64,000 nucleotides of DNA from Escherichia coli. Lineage in GTDB: Bacteria > Pseudomonadota > Gammaproteobacteria > Enterobacterales > Enterobacteriaceae. The position numbers and the translations under genes are program-made. This document shows positions 1,231-7,930 of this stretch, in pieces (positions within the stretch are counted from its first letter, which is position 1; each line of letters begins with the position of its first letter). The stretch lies in assembly GCF_003019035.1 (NCBI RefSeq), contig NZ_CP027447.1; one strand, 5' to 3'. Under the pieces are notes generated by a model. The model searched no databases, was not told where the DNA came from, and saw only the letters and a list, made by a program, of their open reading frames with translations.

Positions 1231-1794
1231 ATGAGGCTAATCGTGGGTAAGCATCACTGGAAAATAGAAAAACAGCCTGAGTGGTACGTGAAAGCTGTCA
1301 GAAAAACTATCGCGGCGTTGCCGGGTGGTTACGCTGAAGCGGCTGACTGGCTCGATGTAACAGAAAACGCTTTATTCAACCGCCTTCGTGCAGATGGCGA
1401 TCAGATTTTCCCGCTGGGATGGGCAATGGTTTTACAGCGTGCTGGTGGCACTCACTTCATTGCTGATGCTGTGGCGCAGTCTGCAAATGGCGTCTTTGTG
1501 TCTCTTCCTGACGTCGAGGATGTAGACAACGCCGATATCAACCAACGCCTGCTGGAGGTCATTGAACAGATCGGCAGTTATTCAAAACAGATTCGTTCAG
1601 CAATTGAAGACGGTGTAGTGGAACCACATGAGAAGACAGCAATTAACGATGAGCTGTACCTCTCAATTTCGAAGCTGCAGGAGCATGCAGCACTGGTCTA
1701 CAAAATCTTTTGCGTTTCAGAAAGTAGTGACGCCCGCGAGTGTGCAGCTCCGGGCGCCGTGGCGTGTCGTGACTGTGGAGAAACTAACGCATGA
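1231..1794 (+). CDS. Early regulatory protein (YdaT/YmfL-like)
   Basis: 187 aa immediately after cro; size and position match e14 YmfL / Rac YdaT-type proteins (recalled, not aligned). Confidence 0.45.
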
Positions 1795-2129
1795 ACAGTT
1801 TAACAACACACTACCGTCGCTCGCAACTGATTGCGCTTCCGGTTCCGGGTGGAAAAGCGAAGGTGGAGTATTGCTATGCAGTGAATGTACCAGGTGACAG
1901 GGAAATTGTAACCCACAGCTTTGCAGAGTGGGCTGTGGGGGATTTCAACCGGCAGAAGGAGACAGTCCTTTGCGACAAGTTAACCGCTGGTTCAAAGATC
2001 ACTACGGAGTGCCCGTCAGAGTCATTCGTTGGGAGCCGGAAACACAACGGGTTATCTACCTCCGCGAAGGCTATGAGCATGAGTGCTTCAGCCCGCTCGA
2101 ACAGTTTCGTCGTAAATTCAGGGAAATAG
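1791..2129 (+). CDS. Hypothetical early protein (YmfM-like); overlapping alternative frame 1928..2149
   Basis: 112 aa; ATGA start/stop overlap with the upstream gene; C-terminus is low-complexity and a second protein-like frame overlaps, so the exact frame is uncertain. Confidence 0.35.
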
Positions 2130-2138
2130 AGGTCGGTC

Positions 2139-3080
2139 ATGAGCACTAAATTAACCGGCTATGTATGGGATGGTTGCGCTGCGTCAGGCATGAAGTTATC
2201 CAGCGTGGCAATTATGGCCCGCCTGGCTGATTTCAGTAATGACGAAGGTGTGTGCTGGCCATCAATTGAAACCATTGCCCGCCAGATTGGCGCGGGGATG
2301 AGCACCGTCAGAACGGCTATCGCACGGCTGGAAGCAGAAGGCTGGTTAACGCGTAAGGCGCGTCGCCAGGGTAACCGCAATGCGTCGAATGTTTATCAGC
2401 TTAACGTTGCGAAGCTTCAGGCAGCGGCATTTTCTCAACTGTCAGATTCTGACCCGTCAAAATCTGACGCATCAAAATCTGACCAGTCAAAATTTGATGC
2501 GTCGAAATCTGGCAAAAAAGCGGGTTTTCACCCGTCAGAATCTGGCGGGGATCCGTCAGTAAAATCAAAACATGATCCGTCAGATAAAAAACCTTCTCGT
2601 CCGGACGCTTCGCAACCGGACACGCAGACGGATGAACAGGATTTTTTAACTCGCCATCCTGATGCGGTTGTATTCAGCCCTAAAAAGCGCCAGTGGGGAA
2701 CGCAGGATGATTTGACCTGCGCACAGTGGCTCTGGAAAAAAATCATCGCCCTGTACGAGCAGGCCGCCGAGTGTGACGGCGAGGTGGTTCGTCCCAAAGA
2801 ACCTAACTGGACAGCCTGGGCAAACGAAATTCGCCTGATGTGTGTGCAGGATGGTCGTACTCACAAACAAATCTGCGAGATGTATAGCCGCGTCAGCCGC
2901 GATCCGTTCTGGTGCCGTAACGTGCTCAGCCCGTCGAAGCTGCGGGAAAAATGGGATGAGCTTTCCCTGCGCTTATCGCCGTCCGTCAGCACGTACACCG
3001 AAAAACGCGAAGACCCGTACTTCAAAGCCAGTTACGACAATGTGGACTACAGCCAGATCCCGGCAGGATTCAGGGGGTGA
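2139..3080 (+). CDS. Phage replication initiation protein (O-like, N-terminal winged-helix DNA-binding domain)
   Basis: 313 aa; an internal DNA repeat array (iterons) encodes an SKSD-rich linker; position after the cro-proximal genes. Confidence 0.65.
   Translation: MSTKLTGYVWDGCAASGMKLSSVAIMARLADFSNDEGVCWPSIETIARQIGAGMSTVRTAIARLEAEGWLTRKARRQGNRNASNVYQLNVAKLQAAAFSQLSDSDPSKSDASKSDQSKFDASKSGKKAGFHPSESGGDPSVKSKHDPSDKKPSRPDASQPDTQTDEQDFLTRHPDAVVFSPKKRQWGTQDDLTCAQWLWKKIIALYEQAAECDGEVVRPKEPNWTAWANEIRLMCVQDGRTHKQICEMYSRVSRDPFWCRNVLSPSKLREKWDELSLRLSPSVSTYTEKREDPYFKASYDNVDYSQIPAGFRG
2441..2590. repeat. Iteron array (putative phage replication origin) inside the replication gene
   Basis: At least 6 direct copies of a ~12-bp unit (c)GTCAAAATCTGA(c) and variants at ~14-15 bp periodicity. 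Confidence 0.7.
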
Positions 3081-3571
3081 TCATGAGTCTTTTGAATGAC
3101 GTTCAGAAATTCATTGAAGCCCATCCGGGGTGTACTTCCGGAGACATTGCGGATGCTTTTGCAGGTTACTCACGACAGCGCGTTCTGCAGTCAGCAAGCA
3201 AGTTACGTCAGAGTGGGCGTGTGGCTCACCGTTGTGAAGGGGATACACGCAGACATTTCCCGCGGCTGACTGAGATACCGCAGGAGCCGGAACCGCAACC
3301 AGTTCGTGAATCCAGACCTGTGCGCAATTTCTATGTCGGCACTAACGATCCCCGGGTGATTTTGTGCCTGACCCGCCAGGCGGAAGAACTGGAGTCCAGG
3401 GGCTTATACCGTCGTGCTGCAACGGTGTGGATGGCGGCATTCCGTGAAAGCCACTCCCAGCAAGAGCGAAACAATTTTCTTGCGCGTCGTGAGCGGTGTT
3501 TACGGAAAAGCAGCAAGCGCGCTGTATCGGGTGAAGAGTGGTATCTGTCAGGGAATTACGTGGGGGCTTAA
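3077..3571 (+). CDS. PerC-family-like transcriptional regulator (tentative)
   Basis: 164 aa; the YRRAATVWMAAF segment resembles the RRAAxxW core I recall from PerC/Pch proteins; not aligned. Confidence 0.35.
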   Translation: MIMSLLNDVQKFIEAHPGCTSGDIADAFAGYSRQRVLQSASKLRQSGRVAHRCEGDTRRHFPRLTEIPQEPEPQPVRESRPVRNFYVGTNDPRVILCLTRQAEELESRGLYRRAATVWMAAFRESHSQQERNNFLARRERCLRKSSKRAVSGEEWYLSGNYVGA

Positions 3572-3897
3572 TGACGACGTTAACTCAATGCCAGCAGCAG
3601 GTGCTGGATATGCTGATTTCTTATCAGAAAGAGCGTGGCTTTCCGCCAACCAATCAGGAGGTGGCAACCATGCTGGGATACCGTTCGGTGAATGCAGCGG
3701 TGGAGCATCTTCGCGCACTGGAGAAAAAAGGTGTCATCACGATAAAGCGTGGCGTGGCCCGGGGTATCACTCTTCATACCGCGGTGAAGGACGACGACAG
3801 CGAGGCGGTCGGGATTATCCGCTCACTGCTTGCCGGTGAGGAAAACGCAAGGCTGCGTGCAACCCACTGGTTACATGAGAGGGGCCTGAAAGTATGA
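3571..3897 (+). CDS. LexA-N-terminal-type winged-helix DNA-binding protein
   Basis: 108 aa from ATG 3571; pattern similar to the LexA DNA-binding domain without a peptidase domain. Confidence 0.5.
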   Translation: MTTLTQCQQQVLDMLISYQKERGFPPTNQEVATMLGYRSVNAAVEHLRALEKKGVITIKRGVARGITLHTAVKDDDSEAVGIIRSLLAGEENARLRATHWLHERGLKV

Positions 3898-4283
3898 AGC
3901 TGATCCTGCCTTTCCCGCCCAGCGTGAACACGTACTGGCGACACCCCAACAAAGGGGCGTTTGCTGGTAAGAGCCTGATAAGCGCGGCGGGGCGAAAATT
4001 CCAGAGCGCGGCGTGCGCAGCAATAGTTGAGCAGTTACGTCGTCTGCCAAAACCAACGTCGGCACCTGCTTCAGTGGAGATCGTGTTGTTTCCTCCGGAT
4101 AACCGGATCCGCGATCTGGACAACTATAACAAGGCGCTGTTTGACGCCCTGACCCACGCGGGTGTGTGGGAAGACGACAGTCAGGTGAAAAGAATGCTGG
4201 TGGAGTGGGGACCGGTTATCCCGGAAGGGAAGGTCGAGATCACTATCAGTAAGTACGAGAAACCGGCGGGTGCAGCCGCCTGA
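3894..4283 (+). CDS. rusA: Holliday junction resolvase RusA
   Basis: 129 aa; N-terminal PPSVNTYW and central RDLDNYNKALFDAL motifs characteristic of RusA. Confidence 0.85.
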   Translation: MKLILPFPPSVNTYWRHPNKGAFAGKSLISAAGRKFQSAACAAIVEQLRRLPKPTSAPASVEIVLFPPDNRIRDLDNYNKALFDALTHAGVWEDDSQVKRMLVEWGPVIPEGKVEITISKYEKPAGAAA

Positions 4284-4302
4284 TTAAGAGGAGAAACGAA
4301 GT

Positions 4303-5100
4303 ATGAATAATCTGATGGTCATTGATGGTATTGAAGTTCGTCGTGATGCTTATGGGCGTTACAGCCTGAACGATCTGCACAGGGCTGCCGGTTCTCTGGA
4401 TAAGCATAAGCCTGCATTCTGGCTCCGCAATGAGCAAACTGAACGTTTAATAAGCGAGTTGCAGATTTGCAACTCGGTCAATATAGAGCCAGTTAACGTT
4501 ATTCGTGGTGGAAATAACCAGGGGACGTATGTCTGCAAAGAACTGGTGTATGCCTATGCAATGTGGATCAGCCCGTCATTCCATCTGAAGGTGATCCGTA
4601 CTTTCGACATGGTAACCAGCGCACCTGAAAAATTATCCGGACAGGCTGCTGACAAGATGCAGGCTGGCGTGATTCTGCTGGACTTTATGCGCCGGGAGTT
4701 AAATCTGTCTAACTCTTCAGTGCTTGGAGCCTGTCAGAAACTTCAGGAGGCTGTTGGCTTACCGAATCTGGCACCGCGCTATGCCATTGATGCTCCTGCT
4801 GATGCACACGATGGCTCAAGTCGCCCTACGCTGTCACTGAGTGCACTGCTGAAACAGTATGGTATCCGCCTGACGGCTAATCAGGCATATCACCAGATGG
4901 TGAAGCTGGGGATCGTCGAGCAGCGCGAACGATACAGCCGTACCGCGATTAACAACATCAAAAAATTCTGGTCGCTGACAGCGAAAGGCTGCATGTTCGG
5001 CAAGAACATCACCAGTCCCGCAAATCCGCGCGAGACGCAGCCGCATTTCTTCGAGTCCCGATTCCCTGAGCTGTTAAAGCTGCTCGATACCGTTCATTGA
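4303..5100 (+). CDS. KilA-N domain protein
   Basis: 265 aa; N-terminal KilA-N-like region (YSLNDLHRAAG ... KPAFWLRNEQT). Confidence 0.6.
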   Translation: MNNLMVIDGIEVRRDAYGRYSLNDLHRAAGSLDKHKPAFWLRNEQTERLISELQICNSVNIEPVNVIRGGNNQGTYVCKELVYAYAMWISPSFHLKVIRTFDMVTSAPEKLSGQAADKMQAGVILLDFMRRELNLSNSSVLGACQKLQEAVGLPNLAPRYAIDAPADAHDGSSRPTLSLSALLKQYGIRLTANQAYHQMVKLGIVEQRERYSRTAINNIKKFWSLTAKGCMFGKNITSPANPRETQPHFFESRFPELLKLLDTVH

Positions 5101-5101
5101 G

Positions 5102-6097
5102 GTGACCGTGAGAGCACTACTGACCCCTGAAATTGCCCCGCGTATGGGGATCGTATTGTTCAGACCAGGTTCAGAGCTGATGCCCCTGTTTATGCAGGGG
5201 CGTGTCCTGCTGGAGCCTGAGCCGGAACGTTATTCATCTTTCGCCAGTGGTGCCGTTCCGGCGGCATCACAACCGCTGGCGGATGATCCTGCCGTTCGGG
5301 CCGTGTTCCGCAATGAGGCAGTGATCCGTCGTGCTGGTGGCGTGGAATGTCTTGAAAGCTGGTTACTTCGTGAAAAAGGCTGCCAGTGGCCTCATTCCGA
5401 CTGGCACAGCGAGAACATGACCACAATGCGACACGCTCCGGGCGCAATCCGTCTGTGCTGGCACTGCGATAACCAGCTGCGCGATCAGTTCACGGAACGG
5501 CTGGAATCAATGGCAACGGATAACTGTGCCCGCTGGGTGTTGTCTGTTGTGCGTCGGGATCTTGGTTTTGATGACAGTCACGTTGTGACAATGCCGGAAC
5601 TGTGCTGGTGGCTGGTTCGTAATGATCTGGCGGATGCCTTACCGGAAAGCGCAGCCCGTAAGGCACTGAGATTACCGAAGCCTGTTGTGCAGGCGGTCAC
5701 CCGGGAAAGTGACCTTGTACCTTCGGTTCCTGCCACCAGCATTATCCAGGATAAAGCGAAAAAGGTGCTGGCGCTGAAAGTGGATCCGGAGTCGCCGGAG
5801 TCTTTTATGTTACGCCCAAAACGCCGCCGCTGGGTTAATGAAAAGTACACGCGCTGGGTTAAGACACAGCCGTGTGCATGTTGTGGAAAGCCTGCTGATG
5901 ATCCCCACCACCTGATAGGTCACGGTCAGGGTGGAATGGGTACAAAAGCGCATGACCTCTTTGTGTTGCCTTTGTGCAGAAAGCATCACGACGAGCTGCA
6001 TGCGGATACCGTGGCATTTGAAGAGAAGTATGGCTCCCAGCTGGAGCTGATATTTCGTTTTATCGATCGTGCACTGGCAATTGGCGTGCTGGCCTGA
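5102..6097 (+). CDS. Phage protein, DUF968-like (zinc-binding C-terminus)
   Basis: 331 aa; C-terminal CxxC...HH cluster (CACCGKPADDPHHLIGHG ... CRKHHDELH) typical of the lambdoid DUF968 family. Confidence 0.5.
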   Translation: MTVRALLTPEIAPRMGIVLFRPGSELMPLFMQGRVLLEPEPERYSSFASGAVPAASQPLADDPAVRAVFRNEAVIRRAGGVECLESWLLREKGCQWPHSDWHSENMTTMRHAPGAIRLCWHCDNQLRDQFTERLESMATDNCARWVLSVVRRDLGFDDSHVVTMPELCWWLVRNDLADALPESAARKALRLPKPVVQAVTRESDLVPSVPATSIIQDKAKKVLALKVDPESPESFMLRPKRRRWVNEKYTRWVKTQPCACCGKPADDPHHLIGHGQGGMGTKAHDLFVLPLCRKHHDELHADTVAFEEKYGSQLELIFRFIDRALAIGVLA

Positions 6098-6114
6098 TTT
6101 TGTGGAGAAAGTTG

Positions 6115-6456
6115 ATGCGTGATATGTATGAAGTATTGGACCGCTGGGGTGCATGGGCTGCAGCAGATAACAGTGGTGTGGACTGGCAGCCTGTTGCTGC
6201 AGGGTTTAAAGGTTTACTACCTCATGGAAAGAAAACACGCCAACAATGCGATGATGATGAAGGAATCATGATTGACAGCTGTGTTGCGCGATTGCGGAAA
6301 TATAAGCCCGAAGAGTATGAGTTGGTTATTGCTCATTTTGTTATCGGCATCTCACTAAGAACTATTGCAAAGAAGCAGAAGTGTTCTGATGGGACAATAA
6401 GAAAAGAGTTGCAAACAGCTCTTGGTTTTCTGGATGGTGTGCTTTCAATGTTGTAA
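6115..6456 (+). CDS. Late-gene antiterminator Q-like protein
   Basis: ~113 aa; last early gene before the late region; DRWGAW-containing N-terminus resembles small Q-type antiterminators (recalled). Confidence 0.5.
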   Translation: MRDMYEVLDRWGAWAAADNSGVDWQPVAAGFKGLLPHGKKTRQQCDDDEGIMIDSCVARLRKYKPEEYELVIAHFVIGISLRTIAKKQKCSDGTIRKELQTALGFLDGVLSML

Positions 6457-6460
6457 TATT

Positions 6461-6486
6461 AGGGGGAATTACCCCCCTTTTTTTCT
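6461..6486 (+). terminator. Rho-independent terminator after the Q-like gene
   Basis: GGGGG-AATTA-CCCCC hairpin followed by a run of 8 T; overlaps the last codons of the convergent membrane-protein gene. Confidence 0.6.
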
Positions 6487-7017
6487 CTGTTGCTTTAATA
6501 AAATTTTGATATTTTGTCTGATTATGATGAGGCAATGTAATAAAAGAAATACCGTTAGTATTGCAAGCCATACGCAAAATAAGCATGCATATAAATTAGT
6601 TGAAAGTCCAATAGTGAATTGTGCAATTGCTGTTGTGATAGAACATAATATTGATGTATTAATAAATGAGGATAAATTGTCTAAAGGTTTATAAAGTACA
6701 CTATCATTGATTTTGTCAATAGGTATACCAGTGGCAATGCTATAAATTTCCTTATATTCCTGAGTTGCAAAAACCTTATCGCGTAAATTTATTATGACAA
6801 AGGTATGCAGGCTCAATAAAAATGAGCCCACGGAAATAAAACCGGAGAAGAGATAGCCTCGTAAGTTTTTATGATAAAAATCAAAAAAGTTAACACTTAC
6901 TTTAGGTGTGTTTCTGTACAATAGGTAAAGTGCAAGCAATGCCAGGATCGAGAATGCAAGCAGTGTAAGGTACTGATACCTCAATCTTTTATTTATTAGC
7001 CATTCATATAAAGGCAT
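6469..7017 (-). CDS. Small integral membrane protein with four predicted helices, downstream gene of the two-gene moron
   Basis: 182 aa; hydrophobic segments at about residues 16-34, 45-68, 117-137 and 142-165; basic C-terminus (QQRKKGG); translationally coupled to the 308-aa gene. Confidence 0.55.
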   Translation of the reverse strand: MPLYEWLINKRLRYQYLTLLAFSILALLALYLLYRNTPKVSVNFFDFYHKNLRGYLFSGFISVGSFLLSLHTFVIINLRDKVFATQEYKEIYSIATGIPIDKINDSVLYKPLDNLSSFINTSILCSITTAIAQFTIGLSTNLYACLFCVWLAILTVFLLLHCLIIIRQNIKILLKQQRKKGG

Positions 7018-7930
7018 TTTTATTCGTCCCGTTCAGCATTTCTTCTTTTATCATATCAAAAACAGGGTTTGTTGTATAATTATCGTTTGTCAATCCATTG
7101 ACTTTATCGGCAATTATATCGAAATCGTATGTTTCAAAAAAAACAGGGCAGTTCATAAAATCAATGGTTTTTTCTATTCCTGCATGGTTTACTGCAATAA
7201 CCTGTGCTTTAGTAACTCCACTCATAGAATTATAAATATTTGAAAGATTCTGAGATAGTTGTTGCACTTTTGTTCTGTCGCTAGAATTAAAATTCATATC
7301 TATTGTGGTGGTGTTAACAAATTGTTCAAGCGCAGTCATTGGTCCACCTTTAAAATCTATATAATTAAATTTAAAGCTTGTGCTTTTAATCTCTTTGAAT
7401 TGACATAAAACACTCTGAATGTTGTTTTTATTTGTCATAAGGCTGAAAGTCAGTCTTTCTTTGTATTTTTTATTTATTGCAGTTACTTCTTTTTGTTTTG
7501 GTTTATCACCAAGTTTTTTTATTTCTTCTTTATTTTGATTTCTGATAAATTCATTACTTATTGTTTCTAAATGAGAAAAGAGAGTGTTCAGACTGCATGA
7601 ACCGTGGTGATACATATAGAGACCAGAAAGATTAGATTTTTTAATTAAGAAAAAGTTGAAATTAGCAAGTTTGTCACTTCCTTGAAGATCTTCAATTTTA
7701 AGCTGGAATTTACCATCAACAAATTGCGACTTACAGTTCTTTTTTTGGTTTCTGAATGTGACAACTAATCCATAATAGAAATCATTCACATCCGAAATGA
7801 GAATTTTACGAGTATAGTCTGTGCGACTGTGTTCTCTGTTTGATGCGTTGATAAAAGCATTCATTACGTCAACGGTATTAATATTTTTGTTATTGTTATT
7901 TATTGTAAATCCTATGCTTCTAACTTTCAT
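7004..7930 (-). CDS. Hypothetical protein, upstream gene of a two-gene moron (candidate sensor/effector partner)
   Basis: 308 aa, Asn/Lys-rich and AT-rich coding sequence; its stop overlaps the start of the downstream membrane-protein gene by 14 nt; no recognisable catalytic motif. Confidence 0.55.
   Translation of the reverse strand: MKVRSIGFTINNNNKNINTVDVMNAFINASNREHSRTDYTRKILISDVNDFYYGLVVTFRNQKKNCKSQFVDGKFQLKIEDLQGSDKLANFNFFLIKKSNLSGLYMYHHGSCSLNTLFSHLETISNEFIRNQNKEEIKKLGDKPKQKEVTAINKKYKERLTFSLMTNKNNIQSVLCQFKEIKSTSFKFNYIDFKGGPMTALEQFVNTTTIDMNFNSSDRTKVQQLSQNLSNIYNSMSGVTKAQVIAVNHAGIEKTIDFMNCPVFFETYDFDIIADKVNGLTNDNYTTNPVFDMIKEEMLNGTNKNAFI

What the first reader, a model, noticed from the sequence alone, without database searches (positions are those of the whole stretch)
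3077..3571. Possible PerC-like regulator carried in the early region
The 164-aa protein contains a YRRAATVWMAAF segment reminiscent of the conserved core of PerC/Pch regulators, which in pathogenic E. coli are prophage-encoded activators of host virulence genes. The assignment rests on a short motif only.
Basis: inference. Interest (0 to 1): 0.3.

Follow-up and report, generated by a model that had tools for sequence, protein, structure and literature searches.

The report
Prophage gene yfdN, a PerC-family regulator

Summary
The ORF at 3077-3571 (+) is real and its DNA is 100% identical to yfdN of E. coli CFT073. RefSeq already names that gene "PerC family transcriptional regulator". The gene occurs in 2673 of 5426 complete E. 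coli genomes and in the phages SfV, SfII, mEp460 and ST64B and in Stx2c phages.

Pfam PerC scores 39.1 bits against a cut-off of 22.6. BLASTP gives 30% identity to EPEC PerC and 42% to a group 1 Pch. The YRRAA..W motif is kept in 41 homologues down to 24% identity (L105, R113 and A114 invariant).

Only the roughly 50-residue PerC core is present. The protein has two domains: an N-terminal winged helix, a disordered linker, and a three-helix PerC/ANR-type core. It lacks the C-terminal half of PerC and Pch.

In all 11 loci examined the gene sits immediately after the phage replication-initiator gene, inside the early rightward operon.

Its function is untested. By analogy with Pch and ANR proteins, I infer a DNA-tethered modulator of H-NS or of another regulator that serves the phage. 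A dedicated activator of host virulence genes is unlikely. The finding is already known and of low interest.

The parts
3077..3571 (+). yfdN ORF. It is 164 aa from the GTG at 3077, as in RefSeq; the probable true start is ATG 3083, giving 162 aa.
   Evidence: start codon from the alignment of 41 homologues
3086..3262 (+). N-terminal winged helix-turn-helix domain, residues 4-62: three helices followed by a beta-hairpin wing.
   Evidence: AlphaFold2 model, pLDDT about 80-86. Foldseek matches to ArsR/SmtB, MarR, BlaI/MecI and PerR DNA-binding domains at rmsd 1.5-3 A over 58-73 columns. Family profile against PDB sequences: BlaI E 3e-4, MarR-type 3e-3.
3263..3349 (+). Pro/Glu-rich linker, residues 63-91, predicted disordered and variable in length among homologues.
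   Evidence: pLDDT below 50 for residues 65-78; gapped, unconserved columns in alignment A1
3350..3511 (+). PerC/ANR-type core, residues 92-145: three helices (92-108, 111-124, 128-145).
   Evidence: Pfam PerC matches residues 100-152 to profile positions 5-57 of 90. pLDDT is 93-96. hhalign against PerC/Pch/ANR proteins gives 99.3% probability, E 3e-20. The NCBIfam ANR model gives 24 bits, below its cut-off of 32.
3407..3442 (+).
   Evidence: Conservation in 41 homologues: R113 41/41, A114 41/41, A115 39/41, W118 34/41, A121 35/41.
3539..3565 (+). Conserved C-terminal tail W-Y-L-(A/S)-G-(N/R)-Y-V-G, residues 155-163. It is specific to the two-domain YfdN type and absent from PerC and Pch.
   Evidence: G159 36/41, Y161 27/41 (plus F 12/41), G163 38/41; absent from PerC and Pch in alignment A3
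2139..3080 (+). Upstream replication-initiator gene (O-like, HTH_36). Its stop codon overlaps the yfdN GTG start or lies 2 nt before the ATG start.
   Evidence: Pfam HTH_36; PHROG 391 'replication initiation O-like' E 9e-135; the same gene order in all 11 loci examined
3571..3897 (+). Downstream gene for a 108-aa protein with only the LexA DNA-binding domain. Its ATG overlaps the yfdN stop (TAATG).
   Evidence: Pfam LexA_DNA_bind E 4e-19; PHROG 362; RefSeq coordinates in CFT073

Best explanation
The ORF is yfdN, a conserved early-operon gene of SfV/ST64B/mEp460-like lambdoid prophages. It encodes a two-domain protein: an N-terminal winged helix-turn-helix, a disordered linker, and a C-terminal three-helix module that is homologous to the core of PerC, Pch and ANR regulators. 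These points are shown here: the identity of the gene, its family membership by score, its domain anatomy, and its fixed position directly behind the phage replication-initiator gene in the transcript that becomes active when the repressor is lost.

The mechanism is inferred. Pch relieves H-NS/StpA/Hha silencing, and ANR proteins bind H-NS and AraC-type activators. By analogy, the PerC/ANR core of YfdN most likely acts by protein-protein contact with a nucleoid-associated silencer or another regulator. The winged helix would then tether that activity to DNA. Expression alongside the replication genes suggests a job in phage lytic development, for example keeping phage or AT-rich DNA free of silencing. 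Effects on host genes would be secondary.

My confidence differs by layer: about 0.97 for the identity and family, about 0.35 for this particular mechanism.
For: Identity: the DNA is 100% identical to CFT073 yfdN, annotated 'PerC family transcriptional regulator', and a paper calls yfdN the only PerC homologue of K-12.

Family: Pfam PerC scores 39.1 bits against a cut-off of 22.6. BLASTP gives E 1e-6 to PerC and 5e-9 to a group 1 Pch. hhalign gives 99.3% probability. The motif is conserved down to 24% identity.

Anatomy: the AlphaFold2 model has a winged helix, a linker and three helices at pLDDT 93-96. The winged helix is confirmed by Foldseek and by a family profile against PDB sequences.

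Mechanistic analogy: Pch activation depends wholly on H-NS/StpA/Hha/YdgT silencing, and Pch reduces H-NS binding (PMC4764244). ANR proteins are three-helix proteins that bind AraC-family activators, and they modulate H-NS (PMC4983702; abstract of PMC5570504). The published ANR signature positions A10, E14, A22, W26, A29, R47 and C51 correspond to A102, E106, A114, W118, A121, R137 and C141 of YfdN (this mapping is my own inspection). The PerC and ANR models overlap: protein P0196 passes both cut-offs.

Phage-centred role: in 11 of 11 loci, spanning 24-100% identity, the gene directly follows a replication initiator with a 4-nt overlap or a 2-nt gap, and it precedes a DNA methyltransferase, a LexA-DBD gene and/or rusA. 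The gene is present in about half of complete E. coli genomes.
Against: No experiment on YfdN itself was found. The papers that mention it list it only in screens or delete it as a precaution. The H-NS link rests entirely on relatives that share 30-42% identity over about 50 residues. YfdN lacks the C-terminal half of PerC and Pch, whose role is unknown to me. PerC-like proteins differ in their effect on LEE1: some activate it, some have little or no effect, and one represses it. The direction of any YfdN effect therefore cannot be predicted. The N-terminal domain matches winged-helix folds only weakly in sequence terms (best E 3e-4), and DNA binding is not shown.
Confidence: 0.55

Rival explanations
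1. YfdN is a Pch/PerC-like activator of host virulence genes: it switches on LEE1/ler or comparable H-NS-silenced islands when the prophage is induced.
For: It shares the PerC core with Pch and PerC. Group 1 Pch proteins activate ler at least four-fold. Uhlich and co-workers judged yfdN a possible confounder and deleted it before measuring ler::lacZ.
Against: YfdN matches only profile positions 5-57 of 90 and lacks the C-terminal half present in all three activators. PchD had no effect on ler and PchE had less than two-fold, and a PICI-borne PerC-like protein represses LEE1. Identical alleles sit in CFT073, IHE3034, APEC O18 and NCTC86, and K-12 carries a yfdN copy of its own. From general knowledge, CFT073 and K-12 carry no LEE. 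The gene's location is also different: it lies in the replication/early module, whereas the group 1 pch gene examined lies between the lysis and terminase genes.
Confidence: 0.1
2. YfdN is an ANR-type anti-activator: its three-helix core binds an AraC/XylS-family activator, or H-NS, and turns host genes down.
For: The NCBIfam ANR model hits residues 98-144 with E 2.5e-5, a better score than it gives EPEC PerC (18 bits) or Pch (14 bits). Seven of the eight ANR signature positions are present. A PerC-annotated PICI protein behaves as a repressor, and its authors suspect it is an ANR.
Against: The score is below the curated cut-off (24 against 32 bits). At 18 kDa with an added winged helix, YfdN is larger than ANR proteins, which are below 10 kDa. 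No AraC-family gene lies in the operon around it.
Confidence: 0.15
3. YfdN is a replication accessory factor that works with the O-like initiator. It would occupy the slot that lambda P or Ren holds, for example by loading or recruiting host replication proteins at the origin.
For: The gene order initiator then yfdN is invariant, with overlapping or abutting stop and start codons, in 11 of 11 loci. No P-, DnaC- or DnaB-like gene was seen in the module. An iteron-like array lies about 550 bp upstream inside the O-like gene. There is a weak PHROG hit to Ren-like proteins, E 0.012. The last 33 residues of otherwise different initiators are conserved next to yfdN.
Against: YfdN has no sequence or fold similarity to any known helicase loader. 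Nearly identical yfdN alleles sit behind quite different initiators, which suggests mosaic exchange rather than a co-evolving partner. The only detectable family relationship is to transcription modulators.
Confidence: 0.1
4. The ORF is a decaying or hitch-hiking prophage remnant with no current function.
For: Many copies lie in cryptic prophages, and truncated or fused versions exist in the databases.
Against: The full-length two-domain architecture and specific residues are kept down to 24% identity, across Escherichia, Salmonella, Citrobacter and Hafnia and in viable phages.
Confidence: 0.03

Closest known systems
YfdN of E. coli K-12 (CPS-53/KpLE1 prophage) and CFT073; also SfV Orf40, ST64B Sb43 and mEp460 gp44
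   Same: It is the same gene. The DNA is 100% identical to CFT073 yfdN, the phage copies are 93-97% identical at protein level, and ST64B Sb43 is 68% identical. Gene order is the same.
   Different: There is no difference of substance. Neighbouring modules (repressor, initiator, presence or absence of a methyltransferase) vary through phage mosaicism.
PerC of EPEC (EAF plasmid, perABC) and PchA/B/C of EHEC prophages (Pfam PF06069)
   Same: They share a homologous ~50-residue core carrying A-x2-LE-x2-G-x-[YFW]-RRAA-x2-W ... RR-x2-C. Identity is 30% to PerC and 42% to Pch, and the profile-profile probability is 99.3%.
   Different: PerC (89 aa) and Pch (104 aa) are single-domain proteins in which the core lies at the N-terminus, followed by a conserved C-terminal half that YfdN lacks. 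YfdN instead has a winged helix and linker in front of the core and its own WYLxGNYVG tail. PerC is plasmid-borne next to the AraC-type gene perA, and the pch gene examined lies between lysis and terminase genes, whereas yfdN lies behind the replication gene. LEE1 activation has been shown for PerC and Pch but not tested for YfdN.
ANR (AraC negative regulator) family, e.g. Aar of EAEC (NCBIfam NF033650)
   Same: Both have a predicted three-helix module, and seven of the eight published signature positions are shared. The ANR and PerC models cross-hit the same proteins.
   Different: YfdN scores below the ANR cut-off (24 against 32 bits), is twice the size, carries a DNA-binding-type domain and has no AraC-family partner gene nearby.
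PerC-like proteins of phage-inducible chromosomal islands (EcCIMP1_025; PICI homologues in EDL933 and CFT073)
   Same: They are PerC-family genes carried by mobile elements alongside replication functions, and their function is not predictable from the family name.
   Different: I did not compare their sequences or architecture with YfdN here. EcCIMP1_025 represses LEE1, while the EDL933 and CFT073 PICI homologues were reported to have no effect.

Membership tests
PerC family (Pfam PF06069) | Score above the curated gathering threshold of the family HMM | tested here: met
   39.1 bits against a cut-off of 22.6, E 9e-10, residues 100-152. Precomputed PF06069 hits are recorded for nearly all close homologues.
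PerC family (Pfam PF06069) | Conserved core motif (A..LE..G.[YFW]RRAA..W ... RR..C), shared with PerC and Pch and kept among homologues | tested here: met
   L105, R113 and A114 are invariant, and A102, A115, R138 and C141 are kept in at least 90% of 41 homologues. The same columns are invariant in the PerC/Pch/ANR set. hhalign gives 99.3% probability.
PerC family (Pfam PF06069) | Full-length architecture of PerC/Pch: a small single-domain protein covering all 90 profile positions, including the C-terminal half | tested here: not met
   Only profile positions 5-57 of 90 are matched, whereas PerC and Pch match 1-89/90. YfdN adds an N-terminal winged helix and a linker.
PerC family (Pfam PF06069) | Activation of the LEE1 (ler) promoter and relief of H-NS silencing | not testable with these tools
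   No experiment on YfdN was found. Among relatives the outcome varies: PchA-C activate, PchD and PchE have little or no effect, and a PICI homologue represses.
ANR family (NCBIfam NF033650) | Score above the curated cut-off | tested here: not met
   24.0 bits against a cut-off of 32, E 2.5e-5, residues 98-144.
ANR family (NCBIfam NF033650) | Small (<10 kDa) protein made of three alpha-helices carrying the signature A10, E14, A22, W26, A29, W43, R47, C51 | tested here: inconclusive
   Three helices are predicted at high confidence and seven of the eight signature positions are present. However, the protein has 164 residues and an extra domain.
ANR family (NCBIfam NF033650) | Genomic association with an AraC/XylS-family activator | tested here: not met
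   The operon genes I scanned, from 1231 to 6456, are cII-like, an unknown 112-aa ORF, O-like, YfdN, LexA-DBD, RusA, KilA-N, DUF968 and Q. None is AraC-like. The rest of the window and the host genome were not examined.
[quoted passage not shown] | Fold of three helices followed by a beta-hairpin wing, similar to solved winged-helix domains | tested here: met
   AlphaFold2 secondary structure is H5-15, H21-27, H33-46, E49-54, E57-62. Foldseek matches 3cuo, 6j05, 7p6f, 1p6r and 3eco at rmsd 1.5-3 A with probability 1.0 but E only 0.03-0.1. Family profile against PDB: BlaI E 3e-4. DNA binding itself is not shown.

The most novel reading that the evidence does not exclude
YfdN-type proteins could be the original, phage-serving form of the PerC/Pch/ANR module. 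In this reading they are early-operon factors, translationally coupled to the replication initiator, that use a winged helix to place an H-NS-displacing three-helix module on phage DNA (the origin or AT-rich late and moron regions) so that replication and late transcription can proceed. The small 'virulence regulators' PerC, Pch and ANR would then be truncated, re-deployed derivatives of that module.
Probability: 0.15. Interest if true: 0.5.

Novelty: already known. Interest (0 to 1): 0.15.

Why it matters
As a finding it adds little. The gene, its name and its PerC-family label are already in RefSeq, Pfam and PHROGs, and at least one paper treats yfdN as a PerC homologue.

What remains open is the biology. 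The protein is present in about half of complete E. coli genomes, including strains I know to lack LEE (CFT073, and a K-12 copy), yet it has never been tested directly. The family name 'transcriptional activator' is unreliable, because relatives activate, ignore or repress the same promoter.

The two-domain architecture and the invariant coupling to the phage replication gene suggest a phage-centred role. That would be cheap to test. If it involves H-NS, it would connect Pch/ANR-type virulence regulation to ordinary prophage biology.

Tried and rejected
- A sequence search of the protein against all PDB chains found nothing at E up to 10. There is therefore no solved PerC/ANR-like structure to compare the core with.
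- Foldseek against PDB and BFVD returned only winged-helix matches for the N-terminal domain and nothing informative for the three-helix core.
I replaced it with seven exact-protein look-ups.
- PADLOC found no defence-system hit for YfdN.
- I considered that the core might be a TPR-like repeat, because a 462-aa protein (P0202) matched it six times. That protein is low-complexity and gave only spurious Pfam hits, and YfdN has no TPR hit, so I dropped the idea.
- Porter et al. 2005 (J Bacteriol 187:458), which tested PerC-like proteins on LEE1, is not held in the library. I know its result only through citing papers.
- The weak PHROG hit to Ren-like exclusion proteins (E 0.012) and the weak NCBIfam hit to BilQ (E 0.011) reflect generic winged-helix similarity, and I did not pursue them.

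Full report
**Observation.** The window has an ORF from GTG 3077 to the TAA stop at 3569-3571 on the + strand, 164 codons long. The segment YRRAATVWMAAF is residues 111-122, nt 3407-3442. The upstream gene (2139-3080) ends in TGA at 3078-3080, so the GTG overlaps it (GTGA). An ATG follows at 3083. In an alignment of 41 homologues, 36 start at the Met that corresponds to ATG 3083 (MSL...), so the real product is probably 162 aa. RefSeq uses the GTG.

**Identity.** The 495 bases are 100% identical to yfdN of E. coli CFT073 (WP_001573323.1). PGAP names that gene "PerC family transcriptional regulator". Matches occur in 2673 of 5426 complete E. coli genomes, almost all on chromosomes. Among phages, matches occur in SfV (orf40), SfII, SfIV, mEp460 (gp44), several Stx2c and Stx2a phages and newly isolated ECOR13 phages at 93-99% protein identity. 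Salmonella phage ST64B (Sb43) matches at 68%. PHROG 1324 ("transcriptional activator") matches with E 5e-78. A 2018 paper calls yfdN "the K12 unique PerC homologue" and deletes it before measuring ler::lacZ (PMC5931665). The feature and its family label are therefore already known.

- Pfam PF06069 (PerC) matches residues 100-152 with 39.1 bits and E 9e-10, against a gathering cut-off of 22.6.
- I took EPEC PerC from plasmid pMAR2 (translated). I took a 104-aa group 1 Pch from an O157:H7 prophage; it is 315 bp long, as described for pchA-C.
- BLASTP gives 30% identity over 56 residues to PerC (E 1e-6) and 42% over 50 residues to Pch (E 5e-9). Both alignments run through the motif.
- A search of 1.84 billion cluster representatives gave 103 relatives. 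These include full-length two-domain proteins down to 24-48% identity.
- In the 41-sequence alignment L105, R113 and A114 are invariant, and A102, A115, R138, C141 and G163 are at least 90% conserved. W118 is kept in 34 of 41 and A121 in 35 of 41.
- A profile of the C-terminal halves against a profile of PerC, Pch and five small PerC/ANR proteins gives hhalign probability 99.3%, E 3e-20.

**Anatomy.** YfdN matches only profile positions 5-57 of 90, whereas PerC and Pch match the whole profile. An AlphaFold2 model built on the 41-sequence alignment (mean pLDDT 78.9) shows four parts:
- residues 4-62: three helices and a beta-hairpin, pLDDT 80-86;
- residues 63-91: a Pro/Glu-rich linker, with pLDDT below 50 for 65-78;
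- residues 92-145: three helices at pLDDT 93-96;
- residues 146-164: a short tail.

The N-terminal domain superposes on ArsR/SmtB, MarR, BlaI/MecI and PerR DNA-binding domains at 1.5-3 A. The family profile finds BlaI (E 3e-4) and MarR-type chains among PDB sequences. No solved structure matches the three-helix core by sequence. The tail motif W-Y-L-(A/S)-G-(N/R)-Y-V-G is conserved within the two-domain family and absent from PerC and Pch. YfdN is thus a winged helix fused to a PerC-type core, and it lacks the C-terminal half of PerC and Pch.

**PerC and ANR.** The NCBIfam model for ANR (AraC negative regulator) proteins hits residues 98-144 with 24 bits, E 2.5e-5, below its cut-off of 32. It also hits EPEC PerC (18 bits) and Pch (14 bits). 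One small relative, P0196, passes both the ANR cut-off (45 bits) and the PerC cut-off (72 bits).

The published ANR signature has conserved A10, E14, A22, W26, A29, W43 and R47, plus a cysteine, spread over three predicted helices (PMC4983702). By my inspection it maps onto A102, E106, A114, W118, A121, R137 and C141 of YfdN; only W43 has no counterpart. PerC, Pch, ANR and the YfdN core therefore belong to one superfamily. The overlap has been noticed before: a 2025 paper found that a PICI-borne "PerC family" protein represses LEE1 and suggested it is really an ANR (PMC11773190).

**Context.** Pfam and PHROG assignments give the following gene order.

| Coordinates | Strand | Product |
|---|---|---|
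| 234-908 | - | cI-type repressor |
| 1231-1794 | + | cII-like CP76 |
| 1791-2129 | + | 112-aa unknown |
| 2139-3080 | + | O-like replication initiator (HTH_36; PHROG 391, E 9e-135) |
| 3077-3571 | + | YfdN |
| 3571-3897 | + | protein with only a LexA DNA-binding domain |
| 3894-4283 | + | RusA |
| 4303-5100 | + | KilA-N |
| 5102-6097 | + | DUF968/HNH |
| 6100-6456 | + | Q antiterminator |

The genes overlap or abut, and the first strong + strand terminator-like site is at 6461. "Early region" is therefore correct.

I looked at ten further loci. These were CFT073, mEp460, ST64B and seven metagenome or assembly contigs that encode homologues of 24-48% identity. In every one the yfdN-like gene directly follows a replication-initiator gene (O-like, HTH_36 and/or Phg_2220_C, or DnaD-like by PHROG). 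The junction is a 4-nt overlap or a 2-nt gap wherever the gene calls allow it to be read. Downstream come a DNA methyltransferase (Dam, MT-A70 or D12 class), a LexA-DBD gene and/or rusA. In L013 the upstream gene is cut by the contig end and was not identified.

The initiators themselves differ. mEp460 and the Stx2c phages share only the last 33 residues of the window's O-like protein, yet their YfdN is 95-96% identical. No P-, DnaC- or DnaB-like gene was seen in the module.

The group 1 pch gene I examined lies elsewhere, between lysis and terminase genes. perC lies on a plasmid behind the AraC-type perA.

**What it most likely does.** I found no direct experiment on YfdN. It appears in an overexpression screen for glycogen accumulation, in an expression library region that caused filamentation, in a nitric-oxide transcriptome and in a predicted interactome, always as an uncharacterised protein.

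For relatives, the best-supported mechanism is modulation of nucleoid-protein silencing. Pch activation of LEE1 depends entirely on H-NS/StpA/Hha/YdgT repression, and Pch lowers H-NS occupancy in vivo and in vitro (PMC4764244). ANR proteins bind AraC-family activators, and the abstract of PMC5570504 reports that they modulate histone-like proteins, H-NS among them.

From this I infer three steps. The three-helix core of YfdN acts by protein-protein contact with such a factor. The winged helix supplies DNA targeting. Co-expression with the replication genes on induction points to a role in phage development. The domain structure, homology and synteny are shown here; every mechanistic step is inference.

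**Rivals.**
- A Pch-like activator of host virulence genes is unlikely as the primary role. The C-terminal half of Pch is missing, PchD and PchE have little or no effect on ler, and identical alleles sit in CFT073, which by general knowledge has no LEE.
- An ANR-like negative role is possible, but the score is below the cut-off and no AraC partner gene is nearby.
- A replication-accessory role is suggested by the invariant coupling to the initiator and by the missing helicase loader. It has no support from sequence or fold, and the free exchange of initiators argues against a specific partnership.
- A functionless remnant is contradicted by the conservation.

**Novelty and score.** The points that go beyond the label are the core-only match, the winged-helix fusion, the PerC/ANR continuity and the fixed position behind the replication gene. 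These are modest refinements. The finding is already known, and I score its interest at 0.15.

Noticed in passing
window 2427-2549 (inside the O-like gene 2139-3080): There is an array of about six 15-nt units (TCAAAATCTGAC plus 3 nt) spaced 15 nt apart. It encodes the Ser/Asp/Lys-rich low-complexity stretch of the initiator. It looks like origin iterons lying within the initiator gene, as in phage lambda.
   Followed up: partly
window 6469-7930 (- strand; ORFs 6469-7017 and 7004-7930): An AT-rich island (30-32% GC against about 52-58% in the flanks) lies just after the Q gene and its terminator. It holds two overlapping minus-strand genes, a hydrophobic 182-aa protein and a 308-aa protein. 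Neither has a Pfam or PADLOC hit. It may be a moron or an unknown defence or exclusion cassette.
   Followed up: partly
window 3571-3897 (+): This 108-aa protein consists only of a LexA DNA-binding domain (Pfam E 4e-19) and has no S24 peptidase domain. It is conserved next to or near yfdN in many loci. It could occupy SOS boxes without being cleavable, but its function is untested.
   Followed up: partly
window 2979-3077 (last 33 codons of the O-like gene): This C-terminal stretch is 82% identical in mEp460 and the Stx2c phages, although the rest of their replication proteins does not match. It is either a mosaic recombination junction just upstream of yfdN or a conserved interaction peptide (PHROG 22793 hits).
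   Followed up: no
window 3077-3085: There is an annotation discrepancy at the yfdN start. RefSeq starts yfdN at GTG 3077 (164 aa), but 36 of 41 homologues align from the Met at ATG 3083 (162 aa).
   Followed up: yes
proteins P0196, L002:18487-18756 (perC), L004:1457-1771 (pch): The curated PerC (Pfam) and ANR (NCBIfam) models are not disjoint. P0196 passes both cut-offs, and PerC and Pch give sub-threshold ANR hits. Annotation as 'activator' or 'negative regulator' therefore depends on which model is applied.
   Followed up: partly
window 1791-2129 (+): A conserved 112-aa ORF of unknown function (PHROG 1170) lies between the cII-like gene and the replication initiator. An ORF of similar size (108-112 aa, no Pfam hit) sits at the same position in three distant loci (L008, L011, L014), but I did not compare the sequences.
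   Followed up: no
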